64,000 bases of DNA from Mobula hypostoma (lineage: Eukaryota), in the NCBI RefSeq assembly GCF_963921235.1, contig NC_086097.1, positions 28,212,001 through 28,276,000 on the forward strand. Reading direction: 5' to 3'. The notes beneath the pieces were generated by a model. That model worked only from the letters and a program-made list of their open reading frames with translations. It made no database searches and was not told the origin of the DNA. Below are positions 16,346 through 64,000 of this stretch, piece after piece. The first letter of the stretch is position 1; each line of letters opens with the position of its first letter. Position numbers and translations under genes: made by a program.

Positions 16346-16386
<41 letters not shown>

Positions 16387-31890: not shown

Positions 31891-31931
31891 TGATTTGTTA
31901 TTGTTTTACCTTATTTTAGCTCAAACCTACT

Positions 31932-32589
31932 TCCTTTTTAAATCTTTTTATTGAATAAGTATACAAAAGGGTAAGCCATATAGGCACTAATACACTGTTA
32001 GAATATAATAAAATTACAGGAAATATTAATACAAAAAAAAGTGATACAAACAATGTAATTTAAACATAACATACTAAGGTAACATAATAGTATACTAATT
32101 TTTATATATATATCTCAATAGAGAAAAGGAAAAAAAAACCCAAAAAAACCCCACCGTGCAACTAACTAAAAGCAAAGCAAAGCAATGGGCTAACTTGGAA
32201 CCAAGCAGAGTTAAAGAACTTAAGATCACGTCCTCAATCCCGACCTCCATTAAAAACAGTAAAAAAAAACAAGAAGGGTATATAAATATGGAGCAAAAAA
32301 AGAGGAGAAAAAAAATTACATTAAATGAAAATATTGAATAAAAGATCTCCAGGTCTGTTCAAATTTAAGTGAGGAATCATAAAGATTGCTTCTAATTTTC
32401 TCCAAATTCAAGCATAATATCGTCTGAGAAAACCAAAAAAAGGTAGTTGGAGCATTAAGCTCTTTCCAATGTTGTAAGATACATCTTTTCGCTATTAAAG
32501 TAAGAAATGCAATCATTCTACGGGCTGAAGGAGAAAGATTACTGGAAATTTTAGGTAGTCCAAAGATAGCAGTAATAGGGTGAGGAGAG
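31932..32589 (-). mobile_element. 5'-truncated L1/Tx1-type LINE with 14-bp target-site duplication
   Basis: AGCTCAAACCTACT at 31918-31931 and 32590-32603; near-identical to the 3' part of 38100-39089. Confidence 0.9.
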
Positions 32590-34554: not shown

Positions 34555-35548
34555 CAAACATAGAAACACAGAAAACCTACAGCACAATACAGGCCCTTCG
34601 GCCCACAATGCTGTGCCGAACATATACTTACTATAGAAACTACCTAGGGTTACCCATAGCCCTCTGTTTTTCTAAGCTCCATGTACCGATTCAAGAGTCT
34701 CTTAAAAGACCCTATCGTATCTGCCTCCACCATCGTCACTGGCAGCCCATTCCACACACTCACCACTCTGCGTAAAAAAAACTCACCCCTGACATCTACC
34801 CTGTACCTACTTCCAAGCACCTTAAAACTGTGCCCTCTTGTGTTAGCTATTTCAGCCCTGAGAAAAAGCCTCTGACTATCCACACGATCAATGTCTCTCA
34901 TTATCTTATACACCTCTATCAAGTCACCTCTCATCCTCCATCTCTCCAAGAAGAAAAGGCCAAGTTCACTCAACCTGTTCTCGTAAGGCATGCTCCCCAA
35001 TCCAGGCAACATCCTTGTAAATCTCCTCTGCACCCTTTCTATAGTTTCCGCATCCTTCCTGTAGTGAGGTGACCAGAACTGGTCACAGTACTCCAAGTGG
35101 GGTCTGACCAGGGTCCTATAAAGCTGTAACATTATCTCTTCACTCTTAAACTCAATCCCACGATCGATGAAGGCCAATGCACCGTATGCCTTCTTAACCA
35201 CAGAGCCAACCTGCACAGCAGCTTTGGGTGTCCTATGTACTTGGACCCCAAGATCCCTCTGATCCTCCACACTGCCAAGAGTCTTACCATTAATACTACA
35301 AACGTTTGTATATTCTGCCGTCATATTTGAGCTATCAAGATGAACCACCTCACACTTGTCTGGGTTGAATGCCCCACTGTAGCCTCTGACAGCCCTCCAC
35401 ACTATCCACAACACCCCCAACCTTTGTGTCATCAGCAAATTTACTAACCCATCCCTCCACTTCCTCATCCAGTTCATTTATAAACATCACAAAAAGAAGG
35501 GGTCCCAGGACAGATCCCTGAGGCACAGCACTGGTCACCGACCTCCAA
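34555..35548 (-). mobile_element. CR1 LINE 3' portion nested in an older plus-strand CR1 relic (about 33990-35690)
   Basis: [16 protein letters not shown] and LYRTLVRPHLEYC.QFWSP motifs. Confidence 0.88.
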
Positions 35549-35836
35549 GGAAGATTGGATAAGTGCATGGTTGGGAGGGTATGAAGAGCTGAGGTCCAGG
35601 TGTGGGTAGATTGGACTAGTTAGGAACACAGAGTGGCATAGACTAGATGGGCCAAAGGGCCTGTTTCTGTGCTGTAGTATTCTATGACTCTAAGAAGCAA
35701 TCTTAATGGCAGTAACACACACAAAATGCTGCAGGAACCCTGCAGATTAAGCAGCGTCTTAAACGATAAACAGTTGATGTTTGGGCTTTCCTGCATCTGC
35801 AGAGACTGCTGTGTAATGATGGCTGTGTTTCCTTAG

Positions 35837-35988
35837 GTGTGTCAAACTGGGCTGGCTATGCCATGGCTTGTGCCCTGCACGTCCTCAACAACTGCACGGT
35901 CCATGAACGCTACCTTCACAAAGCCACTGGATTTCCCAAGGTGCTGGACGTTGACAGATACACTGCAGCACTGCCCACCGTCCTCAAG
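35837..35988 (+). CDS. DGLUCY: D-glutamate cyclase exon (GVSNWAGYAMACAL...ALPTVLK)
   Basis: TTTCCTTAG acceptor, AAG|GTAAGG donor; VSNW.GY motif. Confidence 0.94.
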
Positions 35989-36599
35989 GTAAGGTGCACA
36001 AGCCAATAGGTGAGGGAAAAGGCCATTTGGCCCCTCAAGCCTGCCATACTGTTCAGCCTGACCATGGCAGGTCTCTGCTGGCCTCAGTCCCCCCCATCGG
36101 TGCCAGTTCCCCACAGCCCTCAATTCCTTGATCTTTCAAATGTTTATCTGTCTTATCTTAAATATGTCAAATGATCCGGCCCCCGCCACCTAGAGAGGCC
36201 AAGAGTTCCAGAGATTCACCTCCCTTTGTGACAACAAATTTCAGTGCACCTTAGTCTTTAATGACAGTCTCCTTGTAACGATATCTCCTTGTTCATGACT
36301 CTCCCACTGGTGGAAACATCTCAGCATCTACTCCATTAACTCCTCTTATGTGTTTGAATAAACTCATTCCTCATTCTTTTAAGCTCCAAGGAATACAGAC
36401 CCACAATTGCCAACCTCTAGTGACGTAGGATAAAGTGGGGCAATATGGTGGTGCAGCAGTTAATGTAATGCTAATAAAGCATCAGCGACCAGGGATCAAA
36501 TCCCACCGCTGTCTTGTATGTTCTTCCCACGTCCGTGTAGGTTTCCTCTGGGTGCTCTGGTTTCCTCTCACGTTCCAAAGATGTACGGGCTAGTAAATT

Positions 36600-36857
36600 A
36601 ATTGGACACATCGGTGTAATTGGAAACATCGGTGTAATTGGACACATCGGTGTAATTGGAAACATCGGTGTAATTGGAAACATCGGTGTAATTGGACACA
36701 TCGGTGTAATTGGAAACATCGGTGTAATTGGAAACATCGGTGTAATTGGACACATCGGTGTAATTGGAAACATCGGTGTAATTGGACACATCGGTGTAAT
36801 TGGAAACATCGGTGTAATTGGACACATCGGTGTAATTGGACACATCGGTGTAATTGG
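36600..36857. repeat. 18-bp minisatellite (AATTGGAMACATCGGTGT) x14 inside an HE1/V-SINE-like copy (about 36440-36980)
   Basis: Fourteen units differing at a single A/C site. Confidence 0.97.
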
Positions 36858-37184
36858 CGCCAGAAGCATGGCGACATTTGCAGGCCACCGTCAGCACATC
36901 CTCGAACTGTGTCGGTTGTTGACACAAATGTTGTATTTCACTGTATGTTTTAATGTACATGTGACAAATAAAGCTAATCTTCTTCTACCAAACAACAAGT
37001 TTCACGCCATATCTCAGTGATAATAAACCTGATTCTGATTGTGTTAACACTACCAGCTATCTAACTACAGACTTACTAACTGGACCCTGGGGAGGAATCT
37101 GAAATCCGCGGTACTCCCAGTTACTTCCTCTGTCTGAATAAACCCACGAGAAGTTTTCCAATCTCTCTCTTCACCTGTCCTCAG

Positions 37185-37337
37185 GAAGAAAAACTGCTGG
37201 CGCTGCTGGTGAAACATGGAATTCGGAGTGGGAAAACCGGGAATCTGGGAATGGAAGTGGATGGCTTGTTATTCCACGATGTGCATTCACCCATGATCAA
37301 AAAGTTACTGGAGATCACACTTAAGCAACACCAGTGA
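37185..37337 (+). CDS. DGLUCY: D-glutamate cyclase terminal coding exon (EEKLLALLVKHGIRSGKTG..GMEVDGL...KQHQ*)
   Basis: CCTCAG acceptor, phase 0, TGA at 37335-37337; EVDGL motif. Confidence 0.93.
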   Translation, partial: EEKLLALLVKHGIRSGKTGNLGMEVDGLLFHDVHSPMIKKLLEITLKQHQ

Positions 37338-43637: not shown

Positions 43638-44203
43638 CACCATGGAAACAGGCCCTTCAACCCAATTTGTCAATGCCCCAAACTTTGTGCCAACGAAGCT
43701 AGTCCCACTTGCTTGCATTTGGCCCATATCCCTCGAAACCTTTCTTGTCCAAGTGGCTGCTATATTCTTAGACGTCTAGGCTGGCTCTCCAGAACCAATT
43801 CATATTTCAGATTCAGACTTGTATTTATTACATGTATATTACTACATACAGTGAAATATGTCATTTGCGTTAATAACTTACACAACCTAAGGGTGTGCTG
43901 GGGGCAGACCACCAGCATCACTACACGTTCCAGTGCCAACATAGCATGCCCACAATGTTCAGCAGAACAATACAGAACACAACAAGTAACACACACAGAA
44001 TGCTCAGCAGGCCAGGCAGTATTCATGGAAAAGAGTAAACAGTTGCTGTTTCGGGCTGAGACCTTCTTCAGGACTGGAAACATGAGATGAGAAGTCAGAG
44101 TAAGAAGGCCCCACTGAACTTGTATCTGCACTTCTTCTGCTGCCTCCATCTCCATCTCCATACCCATTTCTTTAGCAAGGACTCTCCAACCCGCACCGAT
44201 GAC

Positions 44204-47200
44204 CCCTTCTCCCAGCTCCAACCCTCCTGCCGTCTCCAACCCTCCTCCCCTCCAACCCTCCACCCCTCCAACCCTCCTCCCATCTCCAACCCTCCTCCCG
44301 TCAACCCTCCTCCCGTCTCCAACCCTCCTCCCCTCCAAACCTCCTCCCCTCCAACCCTCCACCCCTCCAAACCTCCTCCCATCTCCAACCCTCTTCCCAT
44401 CTCCATCCTCCTCCCATCTCCAACACTCCTCCCATCTCCAAACCTCCTCCGATCTCCAACACTTTTCCTGTCTCCAACTCTACTCCCATCTCCAACCCTC
44501 CTCCTGTCTCCAACCCTCCTCCCGTCTCCAACCCTCCTCCCATCTCCATCCTCCTCCCATCTCCAACACTCCTCCCATCTCCAACCTTCAACCCCTCCAA
44601 CCCTCCTCCCCTCTAACCCTGCACCCCTCCATCCTCCTCCCATCTCCAACCCTCCTCCCAGCTCCAACCCTCCTCGCCTCCAACCCTCCTCCCATCTCCA
44701 ACCCTCCGCCCATCTCCAACCCTCCTCCCCTCAAACCTTCAACCCCTCCAACCCTCCTCCCATCTCCAACCCTCCTCCCGTCTCCACCCTCCTCCCGTCT
44801 TCACCCTCCTCCCATCTCCAACCTCCACCCGTCTCCAACCTACTCCTGTCTCCAACCTCCTCCCAGCTCCAACCCTCCTCCCAGCTCCAAACCTTCTCCC
44901 CTCCAACCCTCCTCTCATCTCCAACCCTCCTCCCGTCTCCAACCTTCCTCCCACCTCCAACCCTCATCCCATCTCCAACCCTCCTCCCCTCCAAACCTCC
45001 TCCCCTCCAACCCTCCACCCTTCCAACCCTCCTCCCATCTCCAACCCTCCTCCGTCAACCCTCCTCCCGTCTCCAACCCTCCTCCCCTCCAACCCTCCAC
45101 CCCTCCAAACCTCCACCCCTCCAAACCTCCTCCCATCTCCAACCCTCTTCCCATCTCCATTCTCCTCCCAGCTCCAACAGTCCTCCCATCTCCAACCCTC
45201 CTCCGATCTCCAACACTTCTCCTGTCTCCAACTCTACTCCCATCTCCAACCCTCCTCCCGCCTCCTACCCTCCTCCCGTCTCCAACCCTCCTCACATCTC
45301 CAACCCTCCTCCCATCTCTAACCCTCCTCGTCTCCAACCCTTCTCCCAGCTCCAACCCTCCTCCCATCTCCAACCCTCCTCCCCTCCAACCTTCAACCCC
45401 TCCAACCCTCCTACCCTCTAACCCTGCACCCCTCCATCCTCCTCCCATCTCCAACCCTCCTCGCCTCCAACCCTCCTCCCATCTCCAACCCTCCGCCCAT
45501 CTCCAACCCTCCTCCCCTCAAACCTTCAACCCCTCCAACCCTCCTCCCATCTCCAACCCTCCTCCCATCTCCACCCTCCTCCCGTCTTCACCCTCCTCCC
45601 GTCTCCAACCTCCACCCGTCTCCAACCTATTCCTGTCTCCAACCTCCTCCCAGCTCCAACCCTCCTCCCAGCTCCAACCCTTCTCCCCTCCAACCCTCCT
45701 CTCATCTCCAACCCTCCTCCCGTCTCCAGCCCTCCTCCCGTCTCCAACCTTGCTCCCGTCTCCAACCTTCCTCCCATCTCCAACGCTCCTCCCCTCCACC
45801 CCTCCAACCCTTCTCCCGTCTCCAACCCTCCTCCCCTCCAAACCTCCTCCCCTCCAACCCTCCACCTCTCCAAACCTCCACCCCTCCAAACCTCCTCCCA
45901 TCTCCAACCCTCTTCCCATCTCCATCCTCCTCCCAGCTCCAACACTCCTCCCGTCTCCAACCCTCCTCCCGTCTCCAACCCTCCTCCCGTCTCCAACCCA
46001 CCTCCCGTCTCCACCCTCCTCCCGTCTCCACCCTCCTCCCGTCTTCACCCTCCTCCCGTCTCCAACCTCCACCCGTCTCCAACCTACTCCTGTCTCCAAC
46101 CTCCTCCCAGCTCCAACCCTCCTCCCAGCTCCAACCCTTCTCCCCTGCAACCCTCCTCTCATCTCCAACCCTCCTCCCGTCTCCAACTTTGCTCCCGTCT
46201 CCAACCTTCCTCCCATCTCCAACCCTCCTCCCCTCCACCCCTCCAACCCTCCTCCCGTCTCCAACCCTCCTCCCATCTCCAACCCTCCTCCCCTCCAACC
46301 CTTCTCCCAGCTCCAACCCTCCTCCCATCTCCAACCCTCCTCCCCTCCAACGTTCAACCCCTCCAACCCTCCTCCCCTCTAACCCTGAACCCCTCCATCC
46401 TCCTCCCATCTCCAACCCTCCTCGCCTCCAACCCTCCTCCCATCTCCAACCCTCCGCCCATCTCCAACCCTCCTCCCCTCAAACCTTCAACCCAGCCAAC
46501 CCTCCTCCCATCTCCAACCCTCCTCCCGTCTCCACCCTCCTCCCGTCTTCACCCTCCTCCCGTCTCCAACCTCCACCCGTCTCCAACCTACACCTGTCTC
46601 CAACCTCCTCCCAGCTCCAACCCTCCTCTCATCTCCAACCCTCCTCCCGTCTCCAACCCTCCTCCCGTCTCCAACCTTGCTCCCGTCTCCAACCTTCCTC
46701 CCATCTCCAACGCTCCTCCCCTCCACCCCACCAACCCTCCTCCCGTCTCCAACCCTCCTCCCCTCCAAACCTCCTCCCCTCCAAACCTCCTCCCCTCCAA
46801 CCCTCCACCTCTCCAAACCTCCACCCCTCCAAACCTCCTCCCATCTCCAACCCTCTTCCCATCTCCATCCGCCTCCCAGCTCCAACACTCCTCCCGTCTC
46901 CAACCCTCCTCCCGTCTCCAACCCTCCTCCCGTCTCCAACCCTTCTCCCGTCTCCAACCCTCCTCCCGTCTCCACCCTCCTCCCTTCTAACCCTGCACCC
47001 CTCCATCCTCCTCCCATCTCCAACCCTCCTTGCCTCCAACCCTCCTCCCATCTCCAACCCTCCGCCCATCTCCAACCCTCCGCCCATCTCCAACCCTCCT
47101 CCCCTCAAACCTTCAACCCCTCCAACCCTCCTCCCGTCTCCAACCCTCCTCCCGTCTCCACCCTCCTCCCGTCTTCACCCTCCTCCCATATCCAACCTCC

Positions 47201-50200
47201 ACCCGTCTCCAACCTACTCCTGTCTCCAACCTCCTCCCAGCTCCAACCCTCCTCCCAGCTCCAACCCTTCTCCCCTCCAACCCTCCTCTCATCTCCAACC
47301 CTCCTCCCGTCTCCAACCCTCCTCCCGTCTCCAACCTTGCTCCCGTCTCCAACCTTCCTCCCATCTCCAACGCTCCTCCCCTCCACCCCTCCAACCCTCC
47401 TCCCGTCTCCAACCCTCCTCCCCTCCAAACCTCCTCCCCTCCAACCCTCCACCTCTCCAAACCTCCACCCCTCCAAACCTCCTCCCATCTCCAACCCTCT
47501 TCCCATCTCCATCCTCCTCCCAGCTCCAACACTCCTCCCGTCTCCAACCCTCCTCCCGTCTCCAACCCTCCTCCCGTCTCCAACCCTTCTCCCATCTCCA
47601 ACCCTCCTCCCGTCTCCACCCTCCTCCCGTCTCCACCCTCCTCCCGTCTTCACCCTCCTCCCGTCTCCAACCTCCACCCGTCTCCAACCTACTCCTGTCT
47701 CCAACCTCCTCCCAGCTCCAACCCTCCTCCCAGCTCCAAACCTTCTCCCCTCCAACCCTCCTCTCATCTCCAACCCTCCTCCCGTCTCCAACCTTGCTCC
47801 CGTCTCCAACCTTCCTCCCATCTCCAACCCTCCTCCCCTCCACCCCTCCAACCTTCCTCCCGTCTCCAACCCTCCTCCCCTCCAAACCTCCTCCCCTCCA
47901 ACCCTCCACCTCTCCAAACCTCCACCCCTCCAAACATCCTCCCATCTCCAACCCTCTTCCCATCTCCATCCTCCTCCCAGCTCCAACACTCCTCCCGTCT
48001 CCAACCCTCCTCCCATCTCCAACCCTTCTCCCGTCTCCAACCCTCCTCCCGTCTCCAACCCTCCTCCCATCTCTAACCCTCCTCGTCTCCAACCCTCCTC
48101 CCATCTCCAACCCTCCTCCGATCTCCAACACTTCTCCCGTCTCCAACCCTCACCCCATCTCTAACCCTCCTCGTCTCCAACCCTCCTCCCCTCCAAACCT
48201 CCTCCCCTCCAACCCTCCACCTCTCCAAACCTCCACCCCTCCAAACATCCTCCCATCTCCAACCCTCTTCCCATCTCCATCCTCCTCCCAGCTCCAACAC
48301 TCCTCCCGTCTCCAACCCTCCTCCCATCTCCAACCCTTCTCCCGTCTCCAACCCTCCTCCCGTCTCCAACCCTCCTCCCATCTCTAACCCTCCTCGTCTC
48401 CAACCCTCCTCCCATCTCCAACCCTCCTCCCGTCTCCACCCTCCTCTCCAACACTTCTCCCGTCTCCAACCCTCACCCCATCTCTAACCCTCCTCGTCTC
48501 CAACCCTCCTCCCATCTCCAACCCTCCTCCCCTCCAACCCTTCTCCCAGCTCCAACCCTTCTGCCAGCTCCAACCCTCCTGCCAGCTCCAACCCTTCTCC
48601 CTTCCAACCCTCCTCTCATCTCCAACCCTCCTCCAAACCTCCAACCCTCCTCCCATCTCCAACCTTCCTCCCATCTCCAACCCTCCTCCCATCTCCAACC
48701 CTCCTCCCCTCACACCTTCAACCCCTCCAACCCTCCTCCCATCTCCAACCCTCCTCCCGTCTCCACCCTCCTCCCGTCTCCACCCTCCTCCCGTCTTCAC
48801 CCTCCTCCCATCTCCAACCTCCACCCGTCTGCAACGTACTCCTGTCTCCAACCTCCTCCCAGCTCCAACCCTCCTCCCAGCTCCAACCCTTCTCCCCTCC
48901 AACCCTCCTCTCATCTCCAACCCTCCTCCCGTCTCCAACCCTCCTCCCGTCTCCAACCTTCCTCCCATCTCCAACCCTCCTCCCCTCCAAACCTCCTCCC
49001 CTCCAACCCCTCCAACCCTCCTCCCATCTCCAACCCTCCTCCCGTCTCCAACCCTCCTCCCCTCCAACCCACCACCTCTCCAAACCTCCACCCCTCCAAA
49101 CCTCCTCCCATCTCCAACCCTCTTCCCATCTCCATCCTCCTCCCAGCTCCAACACTCCTCCCATCTCCAACCCTCCTCCCGTCTCCAACCCTTCTCCCGT
49201 CTCCAACCCTCCTCCCGTCTCCAACCCTCCTCCCATCTCTAACCCTCCTCGTCTCCAACCATCCTCCCATCTCCAACCCTCCTCCGATCTCCAACACTTC
49301 TCCCGTCTCCAACTCTACTCCCATCTCCAACCCTCCTCCCATCTCCAACCCTGCTCCCGTCTCCAACCCTCCTCCCATCTCTAACCCTCCTCGTCTCCAA
49401 CCCTCCTCCCAGCTCCAACCCTTCTCCCCTCCAACCCTCCTCTCATCTCCAACACTCCTCCCGTCTCCAACCTTGCTCCCGTCTCTAACCTTCCTCCCAT
49501 CTCCAACCCTCCTCCCATCTCCAACCCTCTTCCCATCTCCATCCTCCTCCCAGCTCCAACACTCCTCCCGTCTCCAACCCTCCTCCCGTCTCCAACCCTT
49601 CTCCCGTCTCCAACCCTCCTCCCGTCTTCAACCCTCCTCCCATCTCTAACCCTCCTCGTCTCCAACCCTCCTCCCATCTCCAACCCTCCTCCGATCTCCA
49701 ACACTTCTCCCGTCTCCAACCCTCACCCCATCTCTAACCCTCCTCGTCTCCAACCCTCCTCCCATCTCCAACCCTCCTCCCGTCTCCAACCCTCCTCCCA
49801 TCTCTAATCCTCCTTGTCTCCAACCCTCCTCCCATCTCCAACCCTCCTCCCCTCCAACCCTTCTCCCAGCTCCAACCCTCCTCCCCAACCCTCTTCCCCT
49901 CTCCAACCCTCCTCCCATCTCCAACCCTCCTCCGATCTCCGACACTTCTCCCATCTCCAACTCTACTCCCATCTCCAACCCTCCTCGTGTCTCCAACCCT
50001 CCTCGTGTCTCCAACCCTCCTCCCGTCTCCAACCCTCCTCCCATCTCTAACCCTCCTCGTCTCCAACCCTCCTCCCATCTCCAACCCTCCTCCCCTCCAA
50101 CCCTTCTCCCAGCTCCAACCCTCCTCCCATCTCCAACCCTCCTCCCCTCCAACCTTCAACCCCTCCAACCCTTCTCTCCTCTAACCCTGCACCCCTCCAT

Positions 50201-53200
50201 CCTCCTCCCATCTCCAACCCTCCGCCCATCTCCAACCCTCCTCCCCTCAAACCTTCAACCCCTCCAACCCTCCTCCCGTCTCCACCCTCCTACCGTCTCC
50301 ACCGTCCTCCTGTCTTCACCCTCCTCCCGTCTCCAACCTCCACCCGTCTCCAACCTACTCCTGTCTCCAACCTCCTCCCAGCTCCAACCCTCCTCCCAGC
50401 TCCAACCCTTCTCCCCTCCAACCCTCCTCCCATCTCCAACCCTCCTCCCGTCTCCAACCCTCCTCCCATCTCTAATCCTCCTTGTCTCCAACCCTCCTCC
50501 CATCTCCAACCCTCCTCCCCTCCAACCCTTCTCCCAGCTCCAACCCTCCTCCCCAACCCTCTTCCCATCTCCAACCCTCCTCCCATCTCCAACCCTCCTC
50601 CGATCTCCGACACTTCTCCCATCTCCAACTCTACTCCCATCTCCAACCCTCCTCGTGTCTCCAACCCTCCTCGTGTCTCCAACCCTCCTCCCGTCTCCAA
50701 CCCTCCTCCCATCTCTAACCCTCCTCGTCTCCAACCCTCCTCCCATCTCCAACCCTCCTCTCTTCCAACCCTTCTCCCAGCTCCAACCCTCCTCCCATCT
50801 CCAACCCTCCTCCCCTCCAACCTTCAACCCCTCCAACCCTTCTCCCCTCTAACCCTGCACCCCTCCATCCTCCTCCCATCTCCAACCCTCCGCCCATCTC
50901 CAACCCTCCTCCCCTCAAACCTTCAACCCCTCCAACCCTCCTCCCGTCTCCACCCTCCTACCGTCTCCACCGTCCTCCTGTCTTCACCCTCCTCCCGTCT
51001 CCAACCTCCACCCGTCTCCAACCTACTCCTGTCTCCAACCTCCTCCCAGCTCCAACCCTCCTCCCAGCTCCAACCCTTCTCCCCTCCAACCCTCCTCTCA
51101 TCTCCAACCCTCCTCCCGTCTCCAACCCTCCTCCCGTCTCCAACCCTCCTCCCCTCCAAACCTCCTCCCCTCCAGCCCTCCACCTCTCCAAACATCCACC
51201 CCTCCCAACCTCCTCCCATCTCCAACCCTCTTCCCATCTCCATCCTCCTCCCAGCTCCAACACTCCTCCCGTCTCCAACCCTCCTCCCGTCTCCAACCCT
51301 TCTCCCTTCTCCAACCCTCCTCCCGTCTCCAACCCTCACCCCATCTCTAACCCTCCTCGTCTCCAACCCTCCTCCCATCTCCAACCCTCCTCCCCTCCAA
51401 CCCTTCTCCCAGCTCCAACCCTCCTCCCATCTCCAACCCTCCTCTCCTCCAACATTCAACCCCTCCAACCCTCCTCCCCTCTAACCCTGCACCCCTCCAA
51501 CCTCCTCCCAGTTACAACCCTCCTCGTCTCCAACCCTCCTCCCATCTCCAACCCTCCTCTCATCTCCAACCCTCCTCCCGTCTCCAACCTTCCTCCCATC
51601 TCCAACCCTCCTCCCATCTCCAACCCACCTCCCCTCCAAACCTCCTCCCCTCAAACCTTCAACCCCTCCAATCCTCCTCCCATCTCCAACCCTCCTCCCG
51701 TCTCCACCATCCTCCCGTCTCCACCCTCCGCCCGTCTTCACCCTCCTCCCATCTCCAACCTCCACCCGTCTCCAACCTACTCCTGTCTCCAACCTCCTCC
51801 CAGCTCCAACCCTCCTCCCAGCTGCAACCCTTCTCCCCTCCAACCCTCCTCTCATCTCCAACCCTCCTCCCGTCTCCAACCCTCCTCCCGTCTCCAACCT
51901 TCCTCCCATCTCCAATCCTCCTCCCCTCCAACCCCTCCAACCCTCCTCCCATCTCCAACCCTCCTCCCGTCTCCAACCCTCCTCCCCTCCAACACCCCTC
52001 CCCTCCAACCCTCCACCTCCCCAAACCTCCACCCCTCCAAACCTCCTCCCATCTCCAACCCTCTTCCATCTCCATCCTCCTCCCAGCTCCAACACTCCTC
52101 TCATCTCTAACCCTCCTCGTCTCCAACCCTCCTCCCATCTCCAACCCTCCTCCGATCTCCAACACTTCACCCGTCTCCAACTCTACTCCCATCTCCAACC
52201 CTCCTCCCATCTCCAACCCTCCTCCCGTCTCCAACCCTCCTCCCGTCTCCAACCCTTCTCCTGTCTCCAACCCTCCTCCCGTCTCCACCCTCCTCCCGTC
52301 TCCACCCTCCTCCCGTCTTCACCCTCCTCCCGTCTCCAACCTCCACCCGTCTCCAACCTACTCCTGTCTCCAACCTCCTCCCAGCTCCAACCCTCCTCCC
52401 AGCTCCAAACCTTCTCCCCTCCAACCCTCCTCTCATCTCCAACCCTCCTCCCGTCTCCAACCTTGCTCCCGTCTCCAACCTTCCTCCCATCTCCAACCCT
52501 CCTCCCCTCCACCCCTCCAACACTCCTCCCGTCTCCAACCCTCCTCCCCTCCAAACCTCCTCCCCTCCAACCCTCCACCTCTCCAAACCTCCACCCCTCC
52601 AAACATCCTCCCATCTCCAACCCTCTTCCCATCTCCATCCTCCTCCCAGCTCCAACACTCCTCCCGTCTCCAACCCTCCTCCCATCTCCAACCCTTCTCC
52701 CGTCTCCAACCCTCCTCCCGTCTCCAACCCTCCTCCCATCTCTAACCCTCCTCGTCTCCAACCCTCCTCCCATCTCCAACCCTCCTCCGATCTCCAACAC
52801 TTCTCCCGTCTCCAACCCTCACCCCATCTCTAACCCTCCTCGTCTCCAACCCTCCTCCCATCTCCAACCCTCCTCCCCTCCAACCCTTCTCCCAGCTCCA
52901 ACCCTTCTGCCAGCTCCAACCCTCCTGCCAGATCCAACCCTTCTCCCTTCCAACCCTCCTCTCATCTCCAACCCTCCTCCCGTCTCCAACCTTCCTCCCA
53001 TCTCCAACCCTCCTCCCATCTCCAACCCTCCTCCCCTCCAAACCTCCTCCCCTCAAACCTTCAACCCCTCCAACCCTCCTCCCATCTCCAACCCTCCTCC
53101 CGTCTCCACCCTCCTCCCGTCTCCACCCTCCTCCCGTCTTCACCCTCCTCCCATCTCCAACCTCCACCCGTCTGCAACCTACTCCTGTCTCCAACCTCCT

Positions 53201-56200
53201 CCCAGCTCCAACCCTCCTCCCAGCTCCAACCCTTCTCCCCTCCAACCCTCCTCTCATCTCCAACCCTCCTCCCGTCTCCAACCCTCCTCCCGTCTCCAAC
53301 CTTCCTCCCATCTCCAACCCTCCTCCCCTCCAAACCTCCTCCCCTCCAACCCCTCCAACCCTCCTCCCATCTCCAACCCTCCTCCCGTCTCCAACCCTCC
53401 TCCCTCTCCAACCCTCCTCCCCTCCAACCCTCCTCCCAGCTCCAACCCTTCTCCCCTCCAACCCTCCTCTCATCTCCAACCCTCCTCCCGAACCCACCAC
53501 CTCTCCAAACCTCCACCCCTCCAAACCTCCTCCCATCTCCAACCCTCTTCCCATCTCCATCCTCCTCCCAGCTCCAACACTCCTCCCATCTCCAACCCTC
53601 CTCCCGTCTCCAACCCTTCTCCCGTCTCCAACCCTCCTCCCGTCTCCAACCCTCCTCCCATCTCTAACCCTCCTCGTCTCCAACCCTCCTCCCATCTCCA
53701 ACCCTCCTCCGATCTCCAACACTTCTCCCGTCTCCAACTCTACTCCCATCTCCAACCCTCCTCCCATCTCCAACCCTGCTCCCGTCTCCAACCCTCCTCC
53801 CATCTCTAACCCTCCTCGTCTCCAACCCTCCTCCCAGCTCCAACCCTTCTCCCCTCCAACCCTCCTCTCATCTCCAACCCTCCTCCCGTCTCCAAACCTC
53901 CTCCCGTCTCCAACCTTGCTCCCGTCTCCAACCTTCCTCCCATCTCCAACCCTCCTCCCATCTCCAACCCTCTTCCCATCTCCATCCTCCTCCCAGCTCC
54001 AACACTCCTCCCGTCTCCAACCCTCCTCCCGTCTCCAACCCTTCTCCCGTCTCCAACCCTCCTCCCGTCTCCAACCCTCCTCCCATCTCTAACCCTCCTC
54101 GTCTCCAACCCTCCTCCCATCTCCAACCCTCCTCCGATCTCCAACACTTCTCCCGTCTCCAACCCTCACCCCATCTCTAACCCTCCTCGTCTCCAACCCT
54201 CCTCCCATCTCCAACCCTCCTCCCATCTCCAACCCTCCTCCCGTCTCCAACCCTCCTCCCATCTCTAATCCTCCTTGTCTCCAACCCTCCTCCCATCGCC
54301 AACCCTCCTCCCCTCCAACCCTTCTCCCAGCTCCAACCCTCCTCCCCAACCCTCTTCCCATCTCCAACCCTCCTCCCATCTCCAACCCTCCTCCGATCTC
54401 CGACACTTCTCCCATCTCCAACTCCACTCCCATCTCCAACCCTCCTCGTGTCTCCAACCCTCCTCGTGTCTCCAACCCTCCTCCCGTCTCCAACCCTCCT
54501 CCCATCTCTAACCCTCCTCGTCTCCAACCCTCCTCCCATCTTCAACCCTCCTCCCCTCCAACCCTTCTCCCAGCTCCAACCCTCCTCCCATCTCCAACCC
54601 TCCTCCCCTCCAACCTTCTACCCCTCCAACCCTTCTCCCCTCTAACCCTGCACCCCTCCATCCTCCTCCCATCTCCAACCCTCCGCCCATCTCCAACCCT
54701 CCTCCCCTCAAACCTTCAACCCCTCCAACCCTCCTCCCGTCTCCACCCTCCTACCGTCTCCACCGTCCTCCTGTCTTCACCCTCCTCCCGTCTCCAACCT
54801 CCACCCGTCTCCAACCTACTCCTGTCTCCAACCTCCTCCCAGCTCCAACCCTCCTCCCAGCTCCAACCCTTCTCCCCTCCAACCCTCCTCTCATCTCCAA
54901 ACCTCCTCCCGTCTCCAACCCTCCTCCCGTCTCCAACCCTCCTCCCCTCCAAACCTCCTCCCCTCCAGCCCTCCACCTCTCCAAACCTCCACCCCTCCCA
55001 ACCTCCTCCCATCTCCAACCCTCTTCACATCTCCATCCTCCTCCCAGCTCCAACACTCCTCCCGTCTCCAACCCTCCTCCCGTCTCCAACCCTTCTCCCT
55101 TCTCCAACCCTCCTCCCGTCTCCAAACCTCCTCCCATCTCTAACCCTCCTCGTCTCCAACCCTCCTCCCATCTCCAACCCTCCTCCGATCTCCAACACTT
55201 CTCCCGTCTCCAACCCTCACCCCATCTCTAACCCTCCTCGTCTCCAACCCTCCTCCCATCTCCAACCCTCCTCACCTCCAACCCTTCTCCCAGCTCCAAC
55301 CCTCCTCCCATCTCCAACCCTCCTCTCCTCCAACATTCAACCCCTCCAACTCTCCTCCCCTCTAACCCTGCACCCCTCCAACCTCCTCCCAGTTCCAACC
55401 CTCCTCGTCTCCAACCCTCCTCCCATCTCCAACCCTCCTCTCATCTCCAACCCTCCTCCCGTCTCCAACCTTCCTCCCATCTCCAACCCTCCTCCCATCT
55501 CCAACCCACCTCCCCTCCAAACCTCCTCCCCTCAAACCTTCAACCCCTCCAACCCTCCTCCCATCTCCAACCCTCCTCCCGTCTCCACCCTCCTCCCGCT
55601 CCACCCTCCTCCCGTCTTCACCCTCCTCCCATCTCCAACCTCCACCCGTCTCCAACCTACTCCTGTCTCCAACCTCCTCCCAGCTCCAACCCTCCTCCCA
55701 GCTCCAACCCTTCTCCCCTCCAACCCTCCTCTCATCTCCAACCCTCCTCCCGTCTCCAACCCTCCTCCCGTCTCCAACCTTCCTCCCATCTCCAATCCTC
55801 CTCCCCTCCAACCCCTCCAACCCTCCTCCCATCTCCAACCCTCCTCCCATCTCCAACCCTCCTCCCCTCCAACACCCCTCCCCTCCAACCCTCCACCTCC
55901 CCAAACCTCCACCCCTCCAAACCTCCTCCCATCTCCAACCCTCTTCCATCTCCATCCTCCTCCCAGCTCCAACACTCCTCCCATCTCTAACCCTCCTCGT
56001 CTCCAACCCTCCTCCCATCTCCAACCCTCCTCCGATCTCCAACACTTCACCCGTCTCCAACTCTACTCCCATCTCCAACCCTCCTCCCATCTCCAACCCT
56101 CCTCCCGTCTCCAACCCTCCTCCCATCTCTAACCCTCCTCGTCTCCAAACCTCCTCCCATCTCCAACCCTCCTCCCCTCCAACCCTCCTCCCAGCTCCAA

Positions 56201-59200
56201 CCCTTCTCCCCTCCAACCCTCCTCTCATCTCCAACCCTCCTCCCGTCTCCAACCCTCCTCCAGTCTCCAACCTTCCTCCCATCTCCAACCCTCCTCCCCT
56301 CCAAACCTCCTCCCCTCCAACCCCTCCAACCCTCCTCCCATCTCCAACCCTCCTCCCGTCAACCCTCCTCCCGTCTGCAACCCTCCTCCCCTCCAAACCT
56401 CCTCCCCTCCAACCCTCCACCTCTCCAAACCTCCACCCCTCCAAACCTCCTCCCATCTCCAACCCTCTTCCCATCTCCATCCTCCTCCCAGCTCCAACAC
56501 TCCTCCCATCTCCAACCCTCCCTCCGTCTCCAACCCTCCTCCCATCTCTAACCCTCCTCGTCTCCAACCCTCCTCCCATCTCCAACCTTCTCCGATCTCC
56601 AACACTTCTCCCGTCTCCAACTCTACTCCCATCTCCAGCCCTCCTCCCATGTCCAACCCTCCTCCCATCTCTAACCCTCCTCCCCTCCAACCCTTCTCCC
56701 AGCTCCAACCCTCCTCCCCAACCCTCCTCCCATCTCCAACCCTCCTCCCCTCCAACCTTCAACCCCTCCAACCCTCCTCCTCTCTAACCCTGCACCCCTC
56801 CATCCTCCTCCCATCTCCAACCCTCCGCCCAGCTCCAACCCTCCTCCCCTCAAACCTTCAACCCCTCCAACCCTCCTCCCATCTCCAACCCTCCTCCCGT
56901 CTTCACCCTCCTCCCATCTCCAACCTCCACCCGTCTCCAACCTACTCCTGTCTCCAACCTCCTCCCAGCTCCAACCCTCCTCCCAGTTAAAACCCTTCTC
57001 CCCTCCAACCCTCCTCTCATCTCCAACCCTCCTCCCGTCTCCAACCCTCCTCCCGTCTCCAACTTTCCTCCCATCTCCAACCCTCCTCCCGTCTCCAACC
57101 CTCCTCCTGTCCAAACCTTCTCCCCTCCAACCCTCCTCCCGTCTCCAACCCTCCTCCAGTCTCCAACCTTCCTCCCGTCAACCCTCCTCCAGTCTCCAAC
57201 CCTCCTCTCCTCCAAACCTCAACCCCTCCAACCCTCCTGCCATCTCCAACCCTCTTCCCATCTCCATCCTCCTCCCAGCTCCAACACTTCTCCCATCTCC
57301 AACACTTCTCCCATCTCCAACACTCCTCCCATCTCCAACACTTCTCCCATCTCCAACTCTTCTCCCATCTCCAACTCTTCTCCCAACTCCAACCCTCCTC
57401 CCGTCTCCACCCTCCTCCCGTCTTCACCCTCCTCCCATCTCCAACCTCCACCCGTCTCCAACCTACTCCTGTCTCCAACCTCCTCCCAGCTCCAACCCTC
57501 CTCCCAGTTAAAACCCTTCTCCCCTCCAACCCTCCTCTCATCTCCAACCCTCCTCCCGTCTCCAACCCTCCTCCCGTCTCCAACTTTCCTCCCATCTCCA
57601 ACCCTCCTCCCGTCTCCAACCCTCCTCCAGTCTCCAACCTTCCTCCCGTCAACCCTCCTCCAGTCTCCAACACTCCTCTCCTCCAAACCTCCACCCCTCC
57701 AACCCTCCTCCCATCTCCAACCCTCTTCCCATCTCCATCCTCCTCCCAGCTCCAACACTTCTCCCATCTCCAACACTTCTCCCATCTCCAACACTCCTCC
57801 CATCTCCAACACTTCTCCCATCTCCAACTCTTCTCCCATCTCCAACTCTTCTCCCATCTCCAACCCTCCTCCCGTCTCCAACCCTCCTCTTGTCCCCAAC
57901 CCCCCTCTCAGCTCCAACCCTCCTCGCCTACAACGCTCCTCCCATCTCCAACTTCCTAGCCTCCAACCCTCCTCCCATCTCCAACCCTCCTCCCGTCTCC
58001 AACCCTCCTCCTGTCTCCAACTCTCCTCCCATCTCTAACCCTCCTCGTCTCCAACACTCCTCGTCTCCATCCCTCCTCCCATCTCCAACCCTCCTCCCCT
58101 CCAACCCTCCTCCCCAACCCTCCTCCCATCTACAACCCTCCTCCCCTCCAACCTTCAACCCCTCCAACCCTCCTCCCCTCCAACCCTGCACCCCTCTATC
58201 CTCCTCCCATCTCCAACCCTCCTCCCGTCCCCAACCCTCCTCCCATCTCTAACCCTCCTCGTCTCCAACCCTCCTCCCATCTTCAACCCTCCTCCGATCT
58301 CCAACACTTCTCCCGTCTCCAACTCTACTCCCATCTCCAACCCTCCTCCCATCTCCAACGCTCCTCCCGTCTCCAACCCTCCTCCCATCTCTAACCCTCC
58401 TCGTCTCCAACCCTCCTCCCATCTCCAACCCTCCTCCCCTCCAACCCTTCTCCCAGCTCCAACCCTCCTCCAAACTCTAACCCTCCTCGTCTCCAACCCT
58501 CCACCCATCTCCAACCCTCCTCCGATCTCCAACACTTCTCCCGTCTCCAACTCTACTCCCATCTCCAACCCTCCTCCCATCTCCAACCCTCCTCCCGTCT
58601 CCAACCCTCCTCCCATCTCTAACCCTCCTCGTCTCCAACCCTCCTCCCATCTCCAACCCTCCTCCCCTCCAACCCTTCTCCCAGCTCCAACCCTCCTCCC
58701 ATCTCTAACCCTCCTCGTCTCCAAACCTCCTCCCATCTCCTACCCTCCTCCGATCTCCAACACTTCTCCCGTCTCCTACTCTACTCCCATCTCCAACCCT
58801 CCTCGTGTCTCCAACCCTCCTCCCGTCTCCAACCCTCCTCCCATCTCCAACTCTCCTCCCCTCCAACCCTTCTCCCAGCTCCAACTCTACTCCCATCTCC
58901 AACCCTCCTCGTGTTTCCAACCCTCCTCCCGTCTCCAACCCTCCTCCCATCTCTAAACCTCCTCGTCTCCAACACTCCTCGTCTCCATCCCTCCTCCCAT
59001 CTCCAACCCTCCTCCCGTCTCCAACCCTCCTCCTGTCTCCAACTCTCCTCCCATCTCTAACCCTCCTCGTCTCCAACACTCCTCGTCTCCATCCCTCCTC
59101 CCATCTCCAACCCTCCTCCCCTCCAACCCTCCTCCCCAACCCTCCTCCCATCTACAACCCTCCTCCCCTCCAACTTTCAACCCCTCCAACCCTCCTCCCC

Positions 59201-62200
59201 TCTAACCCTGCACCCCTCTATCCTCCTCCCATCTCCAACCCTCCTCCCGTCCCCAACCCTCCTCCCATCTATAACCCTCCTCGTCTCCAACCCTCCTCCC
59301 ATCTTCAACCCTCCTCCTATCTCCAACACTTCTTCCGTCTCCAACTCTACTCCCATCTCCAACCCTCCTCCCATCTCCAACGCTCCTCCCGTCTCCAACC
59401 CTCCTCCCATCTCTAACCCTCCTCGTCTCCAACCCTCCTCCCATCTCCAACCCTCCTCCCCTCCAACCCTTCTCCCCGCTCCAACCCTCCTCCCAACTCT
59501 AACCCTCCTCGTCTCCAACCCTCCACCCATCTCCAACCCTCCTCCGATCTCCAACACTTCTCCCGTCTCCAACTCTACTCCCATCTCCAACCCTCCTCGT
59601 GTCTCCAACCCTCCTCCCGTCTCCAACCCTCCTCCCATCTCCAACCCTCCTCCCCTCCAACCCTTCTCCCAGCTCCAACCCTACTCCCATCTCCAACCCT
59701 CCTCCCCTCCAACCTTCAACCCCTCCAACCCTCCTCCCCTCTAACCCTGCACCCGTCCATCCTCCTCCCATCTCCAACCCTCCGCCCATCTCCAACCCTC
59801 CTCCCCTCAAACCTTCAACCCCTCCAACCCTCCTCCCATCTCCAACCCTCCTCCCGTCTCCACCCTCCTCCCGTCTTCACCCTCCTCCCATCTCCAACCT
59901 CCACCCGTCTCCAACCTACTCCTGTCTCCAACCTCTTCCCAGCTCCAACCCTCCTCCCAGCTCCAACCCTTCTCCCCTCCAACCCTCCTCTCATCTCCAA
60001 CCCTCCTCCCGTCTCCAACCCTCCTCCCGTCTCCAACTTTCCTCCCATCTCCAACCCTCCTCCCGTCTCCAACCCTCCTCCTGTCCAAACCTTCTCATCT
60101 CCAACCCTCCTCCCGTCTCCAACCCTCCTCCAGTCTCCAACCTTCCTCCCGTCAACCCTCATCCAGTCTCCAACCCTCCTCTCCTCCAAACCACCACCCC
60201 TCCAACCCTCCTCCCATCTCCAACCCTCTTCCCATCTCCATCCTCCTCCCAGCTCCAACACTTCTCCCATCTCCAACACTTCTCCCATCTCCAACACTCC
60301 TCCCATCTCCAACACTTCTCTCATCTCCAAATCTTCTCCCATCTCCAACTCTTCTCCCATCTCCAACCCTCCTCCCGTCTCCAACCCTACTCTTGTCCCC
60401 AACCCCCCTCTCAGCTCCAACCCTCCTCGCCTACAACGCTCCTCCCATCTCCAACTTCCTAGCCTCCAACCCTCCTCCCATCTCCAACCCTCCTCCCCTC
60501 CAACTCTACTCCCATCTCCAACCCTCCTCCCGTCTCCAACCCTCCTCCTGTCTCCAACCCTCCTCCCCAACCCTCCTCCCATCTACAACCCACCTCCCCT
60601 CCAACCTTCAACCCCTCCAACCCTCCTCCCCTCTAACGCTGCACCCCTCCATCCTCCTCCCATCTCCAACCCTCCTCCCGTCTCCAACCCTCCTCCCCTC
60701 CAAACCTCCTCCCCTCCAACCCTCCACCTCTCCAAACCTCCACCCCTCCAAACTTCCTCCCATCTCCAACCCTCTTCCCATCTCCATCCTCCTCCCAGCT
60801 CCAACATTCCTCCCATCTCCAACCCTCCTCTCGTCTCCAACCCTTCTCCCGTCTCCAACCCTCCTCCCGTCTCCAACCCTCCTCGTCTCCAACCCTCCTC
60901 CCATCTCCAACCCTCCTCCGATCTCCAACACTTCTCCCGTCTCCAACTCTACTCCCATCTCCAACCCTCCTCCCGTGCCAACCCTCCTCCCATCTCTAAC
61001 CCTCCTCGTCTCCAGCCCTCCTCCCATCTCCAACCCTCCTCCCCTCCAACCCTTCTCCCAGCTCCAACCCTCCTCCCATCTCTAACCTTCCTCGTCTCCA
61101 ACCCTCCTCCCATCTCCAACCCTCCTCTGATCTCCAACACTTCTCCCGTCTCCAACTCTACTCCCATCTCCAACCCTCCACCAGTCTCCAACCCTCCTCT
61201 CCTCCAAACCTCCACCCCTCCAACCCTCCTCCCATCTCCAACCCTCTTCCCATCTCCATCCTCCTCCCAGCTCCAACACTTCTCCCATCTCCAATACTCC
61301 TCCCATCACAAACACTCCTCCCATCTCCAACACTTCTCCCATCTCCAACTCTTCTCCCATCTCCAACCCTCCTCCCGTCTCCAACCCTCCTCTTGTCCCC
61401 AACCCCCGTCTCAGCTCCAACCCTCCTCGCCTACAACGCTCCTCCCATCTCCAACCTCCTAGCCTCCAACCCTCCTCCCATCTCCAACCCTCCTCCCCTC
61501 CAACCCTTCTCCCAGCTCCAACCCTCCTCCCCAAACCTCCTCCCATCTACAACCCTCCTCCCCTCCAACCTTCAACCCCTCCAACCCTCCTCCCCTCTAA
61601 CCCTCCTCCCGTCTTCACCCTCCTCCCATCTCCAACCTCCACCCGTCTCCAACCTACTCCTGTCTCCAACATCCTCCCAGCTCCAACCCTCCTCTCAGCT
61701 CCAACCCTTCTCCCCTCCAACCCTCCTCTCATCTCCAACCCTCCTCCCGTCTCCAACCCTCCTCCCGTCTCCAACCCTCCTCCCATCTCCAACCTTCCTC
61801 CCATCTCCAACACTCCTCCCGTCAACCCTCCTCCCGTCTCCAACCCTCCTCCCCTCCAAACCTCCTCCCCTCCAAACCTCCTCCCCTCCAACCCTCCACC
61901 CCTCCAACCCTCCTCCCATCTCCAACCCTCCTCCCGTCAACCCTCCTCCCGTCTCCACCCTCCTCCTGTCTCCACCCTACTCCCGTCTTCACCCTCCTCC
62001 CATCTCCAACCTCCACCTGTCTCCAACCTACTCCTGTCTCCAACCTCCTCCCAGCTCCAACCCTCCTCCCAGCTCCAACCCTTCTCCCCTCCAACCCTCC
62101 TCTCATCTCCAACCCTCCTCCCGTCTCCAACCCTCCTCCCGTCTCCAACCTTCCTCCCATCTCCAACCCTCCTCCCCTCCAAACCTCCTCCCCTCCAACC

Positions 62201-64000
62201 CTCCACCCGTCCAACCCTCCACCCGTCCAACCCTCCTCCCATCTCCAACCCTCCTCCCATCTCCAACCCTCCTCCCGTCAACCCTCCTCCTGTCTCCAAC
62301 CCTCCTCCCCTCCAAACCTCCTCCCCTCCAAACCTCCACCCCTCCAAACCTCCTCCCATCTCCAACCCTCTTCCCATCTCCATCCTCCTCCCATCTCCAA
62401 CCCTCCTCCGATCTCCAACACTTCTCTTGTCTCCAACTCTACTCCCGTCTCCAACCCTCCTCCCGTCTCCAACCTTCCTCCCATCTCCAACCCTCCTCCC
62501 CTCCAAACCTCCTCCCCTCCAACTCTCCACCCGTCCAACCCTCCACCCGTCCAACCCTCCTCCCATCTCCAACCCTCCTCCCATCTCCAACCCTCCTCCC
62601 GTCAACCCTCCTCCTGTCTCCAACCCTCCTCCCCTCCAAACCTCCTCCCCTCCAAACCTCCACCCCTCCAAACCTCCTCCCATCTCCAACCCTCTTCCCA
62701 TCTCCATCCTCCTCCCAGCTCCAACACTCCTCCCATCTCCAACCCTCCTCCGATCTCCAACACTTCTCTTGTCTCCAACTCTACTCCCGTCTCCAACCCT
62801 CCTCCCGTCTCCAACCCTCCTCCCATCTCCAACCCTCCTCCCATCTCCAACCCTCCTCCGATCTCCAACACTTCTCCCGTCTCCAACTCTACTCCCATCT
62901 CCAACCCTCCTCCGATCTCCGACACTTCTACCGTCTCCAACTCTACTCCCATCTCCAACCCTCCTCCCATCTCCAACCCTCCTCCCGTCTCCAACCCTCC
63001 TCCCATCTCTAACCCTCCTCGTCTCCAACCGTCCTCCCATCTCCAACCCTCCTCCCCTCCAACTCTACTCCCATCTCCAACCCTCCTCCCGTCTCCAACC
63101 CTCCTCCTGTCTCCAACCCTCCTCCCATCTACAACCCACCTCCCCTCCAACCTTCAACCCCTCCAACCCTCCTCCCCTCTAACCCTGCACCCCTCCATCC
63201 TCCTCCCATCTCCAACCCTCCTCCCGTCTCCAACCCTCCTCCCGTCTCCAACCCTCCTCCCATCTCTAACCCTCCTCGTCTCCAACCGTCCTCCCATCTC
63301 CAACCCTCCTCCCCTCCAACTCTACTCCCATCTCCAACCCTCCTCCCATCTCCAACCCTCCTCCCGTCTCCAACCCTCCTCCCATCTCTAACCCTCCTCG
63401 TCTCCAACCGTCCTCCCATCTCCAACCCTCCTCCCCTCCAACTCTACTCCCATCTCCAACCCTCCTCCCGTCTCCAACCCTCCTCCTGTCTCCAACCCTC
63501 CTCCCATCTACAACCCACCTCCCCTCCAACCTTCAACCCCTCCAACCCTCCTCCCCTCTAACCCTGCACCCCTCCATCCTCCTCCCATCTCCAACCCTCC
63601 TCCCGTCTCCAACCCTCCTCCCCTCCAAACCTCCTCCCCTCCAACCCTCCACCTCTCCAAACCTCCACCCCTCCAAACCTCCTCCCATCTCCAACCCTCT
63701 TCCCATCTCCATCCTCCTCCCAGCTCCAACATTCCTCCCATCTCCAACCCTCCTCTCGTCTCCAACCCTTCTCCCGTCTCCAACCCTCCTCCCGTCTCCA
63801 ACCCTCCTCGTCTCCAACCCTCCTCCCATCTCCAACCCTCCTCCGATCTCCAACACTTCTCCCGTCTCCAACTCTACTCCCATCTCCAACCCTCCTCCCG
63901 TGCCAACCCTCCTCCCATCTCTAACCCTCCTCGTCTCCAGCCCTCCTGCCATCTCCAACCCTCCTCCCCTCCAACCCTTCTCCCAGCTCCAACCCTCCTC
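44204..64000. repeat. Large 18-bp satellite array (consensus about CCCRTCTCCAACCCTCCT), runs off the window end
   Basis: Continuous degenerate tandem units with hexapeptide periodicity (LQPSSH/SNPPPI/PTLLPS) in the translated frames. Confidence 0.98.

What the first reader, a model, noticed from the sequence alone, without database searches (positions are those of the whole stretch)
44130..64000. A >19 kb satellite that grows out of a Penelope retroelement coding segment
Seen: the array is preceded without a break by FFSKDSPTRTDDPFSQLQPS. CTTTAGCAAGGACTCTCCA (44170-44188) matches the minus-strand Penelope copy in this window (5067-5085; CTTTGGCAAAGACTCTCCA, 17/19). That copy continues ...TTCAACCCTCCTCC, essentially the satellite unit (codons for LQPSS). 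Inference: one 18-nt piece of a Penelope ORF amplified in place to on the order of a thousand units, with the seed still attached at the left junction. TE-derived satellites are known in general, but I do not know a description of this one.
Basis: partly seen in the sequence, partly recalled or inferred. Interest (0 to 1): 0.7.

Follow-up and report, generated by a model that had tools for sequence, protein, structure and literature searches.

The report
Giant minisatellite grown from Penelope retroelement
In a ray genome, six codons of a broken Penelope-type jumping gene were copied head-to-tail more than 1,100 times into a repeat block of at least 19.8 kb beside a normal gene, a clear new example of the known process by which mobile elements seed satellite DNA.

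Summary
Confirmed. An 18-nt array runs from 44210 off the window end (at least 1,150 units). Its first unit lies in register inside a 5'-truncated Penelope-like (PLE) ORF: the junction peptide matches a stingray PLE-derived protein at 22 of 32 residues (E 2e-11), and the unit is exactly that protein's six codons S-R-L-Q-P-S. An inverted PLE 3' end sits just to the left, a known PLE insertion layout. The array starts 6.9 kb after the DGLUCY stop codon. Best explanation: slippage between two 8/9-identical words 18 nt apart, then growth by unequal exchange (block duplications of 0.2-4.7 kb), perhaps aided by G-quadruplexes. The right junction and other loci could not be examined. TE-born tandem arrays, including Penelope-related and ORF-derived ones, are in print, and this scan noted SINE-born and twister-born arrays elsewhere in this genome. 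I found no description of this array. Bold, unlikely reading: the telomerase-related PLE reverse transcriptase made the first copies itself. New member of a known kind; interest 0.3.

The parts
1663..37337 (+). DGLUCY (D-glutamate cyclase) host gene: ten coding-exon matches in order, the last ending at 37334 plus stop; context only
   Evidence: tblastn of Hemitrygon akajei P0152, 66-97% identity per match, residues 101-639; Pfam PF07286 E 3.9e-11; stop codon
43984..44108 (-). Inverted short PLE 3' end (pseudo-LTR arm), pointing away from the ORF piece; holds a degenerate hammerhead-like core at 44048-44071
   Evidence: blastn to many PLE 3' ends in the window, e.g. 39294-39426 and the end of the GIY-YIG-bearing copy at 42826; regex core match; Rfam gave no hammerhead at E<=1
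44109..44209 (+). 5'-truncated PLE ORF piece upstream of the seed (FF..LH.HFFSKDSPTRTDDPF); the significant match starts at 44132, and 44109-44131 is uncertain
   Evidence: 22/32 aa with P0001, E 2e-11; tblastn P0001 200-229 to 44132-44227, E 2.4e-8; alignment A1
44210..44227 (+). Seed = unit 1, codons S-Q-L-Q-P-S (S-R-L-Q-P-S in P0001 residues 224-229), with 9-nt look-alike words starting at 44204 and 44222
44228..64000 (+). Amplified array: about 1,150 units, mostly 18 nt (660), 16 nt (291) and 17 nt (140); nested block duplications; G-rich minus strand; runs off the window
4715..5243 (-). Second, unexpanded PLE copy (comparator) with an about 24-nt in-frame gap over the seed; continues SSSW after LQPS; interrupted at 4102-4713 by another PLE 3' part
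36599..36857 (+). Small in-window parallel: a 14-unit, 18-nt array inside a dispersed SINE-like repeat, with both flanks still collinear with unexpanded copies
   Evidence: TRF; left flank aligns to 1974-2086 and right flank to 2093-2194 of one other copy; single unit-like copies at 16999 and 19676

Best explanation
A locus-born giant minisatellite derived from a Penelope-like retroelement. (1) A PLE inserted 6.6 kb downstream of DGLUCY in the usual form of an inverted short 3' end joined to a 5'-truncated copy (shown for the left part). (2) About 100 nt into the truncated ORF, the codons for Pro-Phe-Ser and Pro-Ser-Ser form two 9-nt words, 8/9 identical, exactly 18 nt apart; slippage or unequal exchange between them made the first 18-nt duplication (inferred). 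(3) The tandem grew by repeated unequal recombination or conversion, copying blocks of 0.2-4.7 kb, while CpG decay and 1-3 nt deletions produced 225 monomer variants (pattern shown, mechanism inferred). (4) The G-rich strand can form G-quadruplexes, which may have favoured instability (predicted only). The array is non-coding and most likely neutral. The rest of the PLE (about 2.3 kb: SSSWTP..., RT, GIY-YIG, 3' end) should resume at the right end unless it was deleted.
For: Register-exact match of unit and ORF; 127 of 660 18-nt monomers still translate as SRLQPS and 219 as SHLQPS. CG 294, CA 473, TG 52 at the Arg codon among 1,150 monomers, the pattern of CpG decay from the ORF form, although the CA count includes 96 CAG variants. 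Family identity: 10 of 15 scanned relatives of the adjoining ORF segment carry both RVT_1 and GIY-YIG at E<=0.01 (I chose these 15 from the 150 hits listed, 13 of them for their length). Inverted arm; such arms are described for PLEs (PMC8557442, passages). Microhomology: 44204-44212 against the comparator's 5057-5049. Block duplications: near-identical runs up to 778 bp at offsets 311, 668, 1022, 2925, 3793 and 4669. G4Hunter >=1.2 in 75% of array windows against 2.9% of the flank. Same process on a small scale at 36599-36857. A contig of organism C spans 43743-44031 at about 90% identity and near single-copy depth, which suggests the PLE arm is older than the A/C split.
Against: The right junction is not visible and no genome is held. 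No divergence gradient from the junction (0.88-0.91 identity in every 2-kb bin), so the left edge does not look older. Unit 1 is a derived CAG variant (0.846 mean identity to the array, against 0.87-0.88 for the two top units). The only listed raw-data contig over the junction (X1, 44049-44227, no differences) stops at the end of unit 1 and so does not show the array following the seed; X1 may be the source sample. The local downstream word is CCCTCCTGC, so the 8/9 microhomology is pieced together from two copies. P0001 and P0005 themselves had no RT or GIY-YIG hit; the link to PLEs is through the adjoining segment.
Confidence: 0.8

Rival explanations
1. The unit came from a PLE, but at another locus. 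An existing array then invaded this copy by ectopic recombination or conversion through the shared 18-25 nt, so the attached PLE piece is a landing site and not the birthplace.
For: No gradient from the junction. A 25-nt word that spans the seed's upstream edge recurs 16 times inside the array, which shows exchange with the seed but not its direction. Thousands of seed-like PLE copies exist in organisms A and B.
Against: My rough simulation says the visible array alone would give 4,000-56,000 depth units in the last bin, against 24,206 observed in X1. That leaves little room for a large family elsewhere, though the tool's aligner and contig filters are unknown to me. 18-25 nt is short for homologous invasion (general knowledge).
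Confidence: 0.1
2. The first tandem copies were made during insertion by the PLE reverse transcriptase itself, realigning on the 9-nt repeated word as telomerase realigns on its template; DNA-level recombination did the later growth.
For: PLE RTs share their most recent ancestor with telomerase RTs (PMC8557442 abstract start). The seed has a 1.5-repeat, template-like layout. It lies only about 100 nt from the truncation/inversion point of an estimated 2.4-kb copy.
Against: The C-rich seed is unstable anyway: the comparator copy has a deletion at the same spot. A non-PLE repeat in the same window also grew an array. Depth ratios suggest single-unit seeds dominate in all four runs (last/penultimate bin 0.16-0.21).
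Confidence: 0.06
3. Chance likeness or mis-join: an unrelated C-rich satellite abuts a PLE fragment, in the genome or only in the assembly.
For: Both sequences are low in complexity; the in-window DNA match alone is marginal; no listed contig bridges unit 1 to unit 2.
Against: The second most common monomer (100 exact copies) encodes the six residues of the stingray protein in register, directly after about 25 matching codons.
Confidence: 0.04

Closest known systems
SINE-derived satellites (sSats) of squamate reptiles (Vassetzky, Kosushkin and Ryskov 2023, PMC10702118; abstract, Background, Discussion and one Results section read)
   Same: Tandem array of an internal piece of a retroelement, with a longer terminal unit that still matches the element; up to 1000 units per locus; proposed start by duplication within an abundant repeat.
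   Different: Source is the coding region of an autonomous PLE, not a SINE; host is a ray; the locus is interstitial (at least 26 Mb and 67 Mb from the ends of its piece, by distances listed), not subtelomeric; monomers are heterogeneous.
TE-ORF-derived satellites and TE-derived expanded repeats: chicken HinfI from CR1 ORF2, Phodopus PROsat from L1 ORF2, rye gag-derived satellite, mouse Ms6-hm and Hm-2 from a MaLR LTR (review PMC9659126; passages and part of Table 1 seen)
   Same: Part of a retroelement, in some cases its ORF, becomes a tandem repeat.
   Different: That review has no occurrence of 'Penelope' in its main text. Here the unit is exactly six codons and the parent ORF is still attached in register.
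Penelope-related satDNAs, e.g. HviSat02-2707 of Harttia catfish (PMC11955569, passages); the review PMC12692304 lists Penelope elements among satDNA sources (passage)
   Same: Satellite sequence related to a Penelope element.
   Different: By its name that monomer is 2.7 kb; the passages seen report similarity only, with no birth junction. This one is an 18-nt unit with its seed junction.
G4-forming unstable minisatellites such as human CEB1 (PMC3486850, abstract and outline only)
   Same: GC-rich, strand-asymmetric unit with G-quadruplex potential.
   Different: G4 formation and instability are only predicted here; the array is far longer and TE-derived.

Membership tests
Endonuclease-bearing Penelope-like element (parent copy) | Single ORF with RT and C-terminal GIY-YIG endonuclease | tested here: inconclusive
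   Not visible in this copy (would lie beyond the array). 10 of 15 scanned relatives of the adjoining segment have both domains. A GIY-YIG ORF with the same 3' end lies at 41859-42455.
Endonuclease-bearing Penelope-like element (parent copy) | Homology of the junction to the PLE ORF upstream of the RT | tested here: met
   22/32 aa with P0001, E 2e-11; P0005 E 1.2e-6; weak hit to the RT+GIY-YIG protein P0071, E 0.044
Endonuclease-bearing Penelope-like element (parent copy) | 5' truncation with an adjacent inverted 5'-truncated copy (inverted pseudo-LTR) | tested here: met
   43984-44108 is a PLE 3' end on the minus strand abutting the ORF piece; layout described in PMC8557442
Endonuclease-bearing Penelope-like element (parent copy) | Hammerhead motif in the pseudo-LTR | tested here: inconclusive
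   Degenerate core at 44048-44071 by a recalled-motif regex with up to 2 mismatches; no Rfam hammerhead at E<=1
Endonuclease-bearing Penelope-like element (parent copy) | Target-site duplication or tail around the whole insertion | not testable with these tools
   Right end is outside the window; no genome held
TE-derived satellite (sSat type) | Unit equals an internal segment of the element | tested here: met
   Unit = codons of P0001 residues 224-229
TE-derived satellite (sSat type) | Terminal unit extends into the parent element on at least one side | tested here: met
   Left side, 44132-44227; right side not visible
TE-derived satellite (sSat type) | Several loci with concerted evolution; subtelomeric preference of long loci | tested here: inconclusive
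   Depth estimate fits one or few loci; position is interstitial by the distances; no genome search possible
Classical major or centromeric satellite DNA | Megabase-scale, homogenised, heterochromatic arrays | tested here: inconclusive
   Full length unknown; 225 monomer types and no fixed higher-order period; 6.9 kb from a gene; rough depth estimate argues against megabases

The most novel reading that the evidence does not exclude
The telomerase-related PLE reverse transcriptase can copy a short internal RNA segment repeatedly by realigning on a repeated word, so that it writes the first units of a minisatellite at the moment of insertion. This array, 100 nt from the element's truncation point and carrying one telomere-type hexamer per unit (691 occurrences), would be a fossil of telomerase-like repeat addition by a retroelement, later enlarged by recombination.
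Probability: 0.06. Interest if true: 0.7.

Novelty: new member of a known kind. Interest (0 to 1): 0.3.

Why it matters
Most TE-satellite links rest on similarity alone. Here the birth junction is kept to the codon, so direction, seed and probable first step can be read, and orthologous unexpanded copies in related rays could date the expansion. With the small SINE-born array 7 kb upstream and the scan's unchecked notes of 13.5-kb and 74-kb TE-born arrays in this genome, it suggests that TE pieces are a regular source of the simple-tandem-repeat-rich regions reported for the red stingray (bioRxiv 10.1101/2025.06.08.657570, passages and one section). No function is indicated.

Tried and rejected
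No whole genome is held, so the right junction and other loci were not examined. Exact DNA-pattern scans for the seed (metagenomes; prokaryote genomes) and for a unit dimer (metagenomes) found 0 stretches; P0001 found no related locus in viral or prokaryote contigs. These collections are not expected to hold ray DNA. A protein search with junction plus array translation found nothing at E<=0.001 among 8000 scored candidates of 127-405 residues. P0002, named 'proline-rich protein', is a frameshifted PLE read-through and not a second array. Rfam gave 3 weak, irrelevant matches. Contig depth cannot say whether organisms B, C or F hold the array: the ratio of the last two bins is 0.16-0.21 in all 4 runs, as single-unit PLE copies would give, while the simulated array gives the opposite ratio. 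I laid 4 of the 20 runs that hold part of the stretch, and the output showed only the best-supported rows. A coding role is rejected: 21-32 stops per plus-strand frame and about 40% of monomers are not 18 nt long. A telomeric array is rejected: no tandem telomeric decamer in the array. A fixed higher-order repeat is rejected: offsets are many and local. PLE insertion into an existing satellite is rejected: the unit is an internal ORF segment, not a target next to the element's end. Literature: eight searches (five of them aimed at Penelope-derived or elasmobranch satellites) listed no description of this array; only the top listings were seen, subscription papers are mostly missing, and the supplement of the stingray preprint (curated repeat table) could not be seen.
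Full report
Observation. The array is real. TRF reports 44204-64000, period 18, 1143.4 copies, 81% matches; GC skew is -0.85 to -0.91 from 44 kb on. A wraparound alignment gives 1,150 monomers from 44210, of 225 types; 660 are 18 nt, 291 are 16 nt and 140 are 17 nt. The two commonest are TCCCATCTCCAACCCTCC (160) and TCCCGTCTCCAACCCTCC (100). No foreign island interrupts it. The 17/19 match to the minus-strand copy is as stated. That copy lacks about 24 nt of the seed, however, and the DNA match alone is marginal: score 50, equal to the best of 200 shuffles.

Host and context. DGLUCY exons map in order from 1663 to 37334, best to the stingrays Hemitrygon akajei and Hypanus sabinus, so the host is probably a myliobatiform ray. 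The array starts 6.9 kb after the stop codon. By the distances listed with earlier notes, the window lies at least 26 Mb and 67 Mb from the ends of its piece, so it is interstitial.

The seed. The translation of 44108-44230 matches H. akajei P0001 at 22 of 32 residues, E 2e-11. P0001 reads FFGKDSSTPTDDPFSRLQPSSSSWTP; the window reads FFSKDSPTRTDDPFSQLQPS and then repeats. The unit is thus the six codons S-R-L-Q-P-S; 127 of 660 18-nt monomers still translate so, 219 as SHLQPS. The ORF segment just downstream, taken from the comparator copy, finds 833 proteins at E<=0.001. Of 15 that I scanned (13 picked for length from the 150 listed), 10 carry both RVT_1 and GIY-YIG, the PLE architecture. P0001 and P0005 are partial and had no such hit. 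Directly left of the ORF piece, 43984-44108 is a PLE 3' end on the opposite strand with a degenerate hammerhead-like core (motif partly recalled; Rfam found none). An inverted 5'-truncated copy at the 5' end is a described PLE layout (PMC8557442, passages). So the left part is one ordinary truncated PLE insertion, and the array begins about 100 nt into its ORF.

Direction and growth. At the Arg codon the array has CG 294, CA 473 (96 of them CAG variants) and TG 52 times. CpG decay from the ORF form explains this (inference). The word at 44204-44212 and the word that follows the unit in the comparator (5057-5049) are 8/9 identical and 18 nt apart, which gives a route to the first duplication; the comparator's deletion at this spot shows the stretch is unstable. 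Later growth was by copying blocks: near-identical runs up to 778 bp at offsets from about 0.2 to 4.7 kb, with no single higher-order period. Identity to the consensus is flat at 0.88-0.91, so position gives no age gradient. The minus strand scores G4Hunter >=1.2 in 75% of windows, against 2.9% of the flank. G4-dependent instability is reported for human CEB1 in yeast (PMC3486850, abstract only); here it is a prediction.

Other samples. Twenty of 23 listed runs hold part of 40000-44260; I laid 4. X1 has a contig over 44049-44227 with no differences at single-copy depth (18.8 against 19.9). It confirms the arm-to-seed join but stops at the end of unit 1, and X1 may be the source sample. Organism C has a contig over 43743-44031 (26 other letters, 17 gaps, depth 3.8 against 5.8), probably orthologous, which suggests the inverted arm predates the A/C split. 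Depth does not show who has the array: the last two bins have the same ratio (0.16-0.21) in all four runs. A rough simulation of the visible array gives 4,000-56,000 depth units in the last bin against 24,206 seen in X1, which fits one or few loci and not a megabase family; the tool warns that such sums are no copy number. Unexplained: the seed bin is about ten to twenty times deeper, relative to other repeats, in organisms A and B than in C and F.

A parallel in the window. The 14-unit array at 36599-36857 lies inside a dispersed SINE-like repeat (label from my recall). Its flanks align contiguously to one other copy (1974-2086 and 2093-2194), and single unit-like copies occur at 16999 and 19676. 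Earlier notes of this scan describe a 74-kb SINE-born and a 13.5-kb twister-born array in this genome; I did not check those loci.

What is known. Squamate sSats are tandem pieces of SINEs with a terminal unit that extends into the parent, up to 1000 units (PMC10702118, sections read). ORF-derived satellites are listed for CR1, L1 and gag (PMC9659126, passages). Penelope-related satellites are reported in Harttia (PMC11955569, passages) and named as a class in a 2025 review (PMC12692304, passage). The searches aimed at this listed no description of this array. It works like an sSat and meets the two tests I could run; it differs in source (PLE coding sequence), host and position.

Verdict. Observation confirmed, interpretation supported. 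In-place birth with later recombinational growth: 0.80; invasion from another PLE-born array: 0.10; first copies written by the PLE reverse transcriptase: 0.06; chance or mis-join: 0.04. New member of a known kind. Interest 0.3; 0.7 if the reverse-transcriptase reading were true. The right junction and the orthologous loci decide between these.

Noticed in passing
36599-36857: 14-unit, 18-nt array grown inside a dispersed SINE-like repeat in the last DGLUCY intron; both flanks kept and collinear with unexpanded copies.
   Followed up: partly
83-480: 24-nt minisatellite, 16.6 copies, whose unit shares the 9-mer CAACCCTCC with the big array's unit; parent not identified.
   Followed up: no
11610-11830: 16-nt minisatellite, 13.8 copies, between two SINE-like pieces in a DGLUCY intron; parent not identified.
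   Followed up: no
3896-5243: A minus-strand PLE ORF copy is interrupted at 4102-4713 by the 3' part of another PLE in opposite orientation; the ORF continues on the far side.
   Followed up: partly
44172-44220: Contig depth over the seed is 10-20 times higher, relative to six other repeat bins, in organisms A and B than in C and F; perhaps a lineage-specific PLE subfamily.
   Followed up: partly
40596-40957 and 41572-41889: Two 98%-identical copies of a young repeat in inverted orientation, 0.6 kb apart; the second interrupts a PLE between its RT-end and GIY-YIG parts.
   Followed up: no
44210-64000: The unit contains one telomere-type hexamer (691 occurrences) but never two in tandem.
   Followed up: partly
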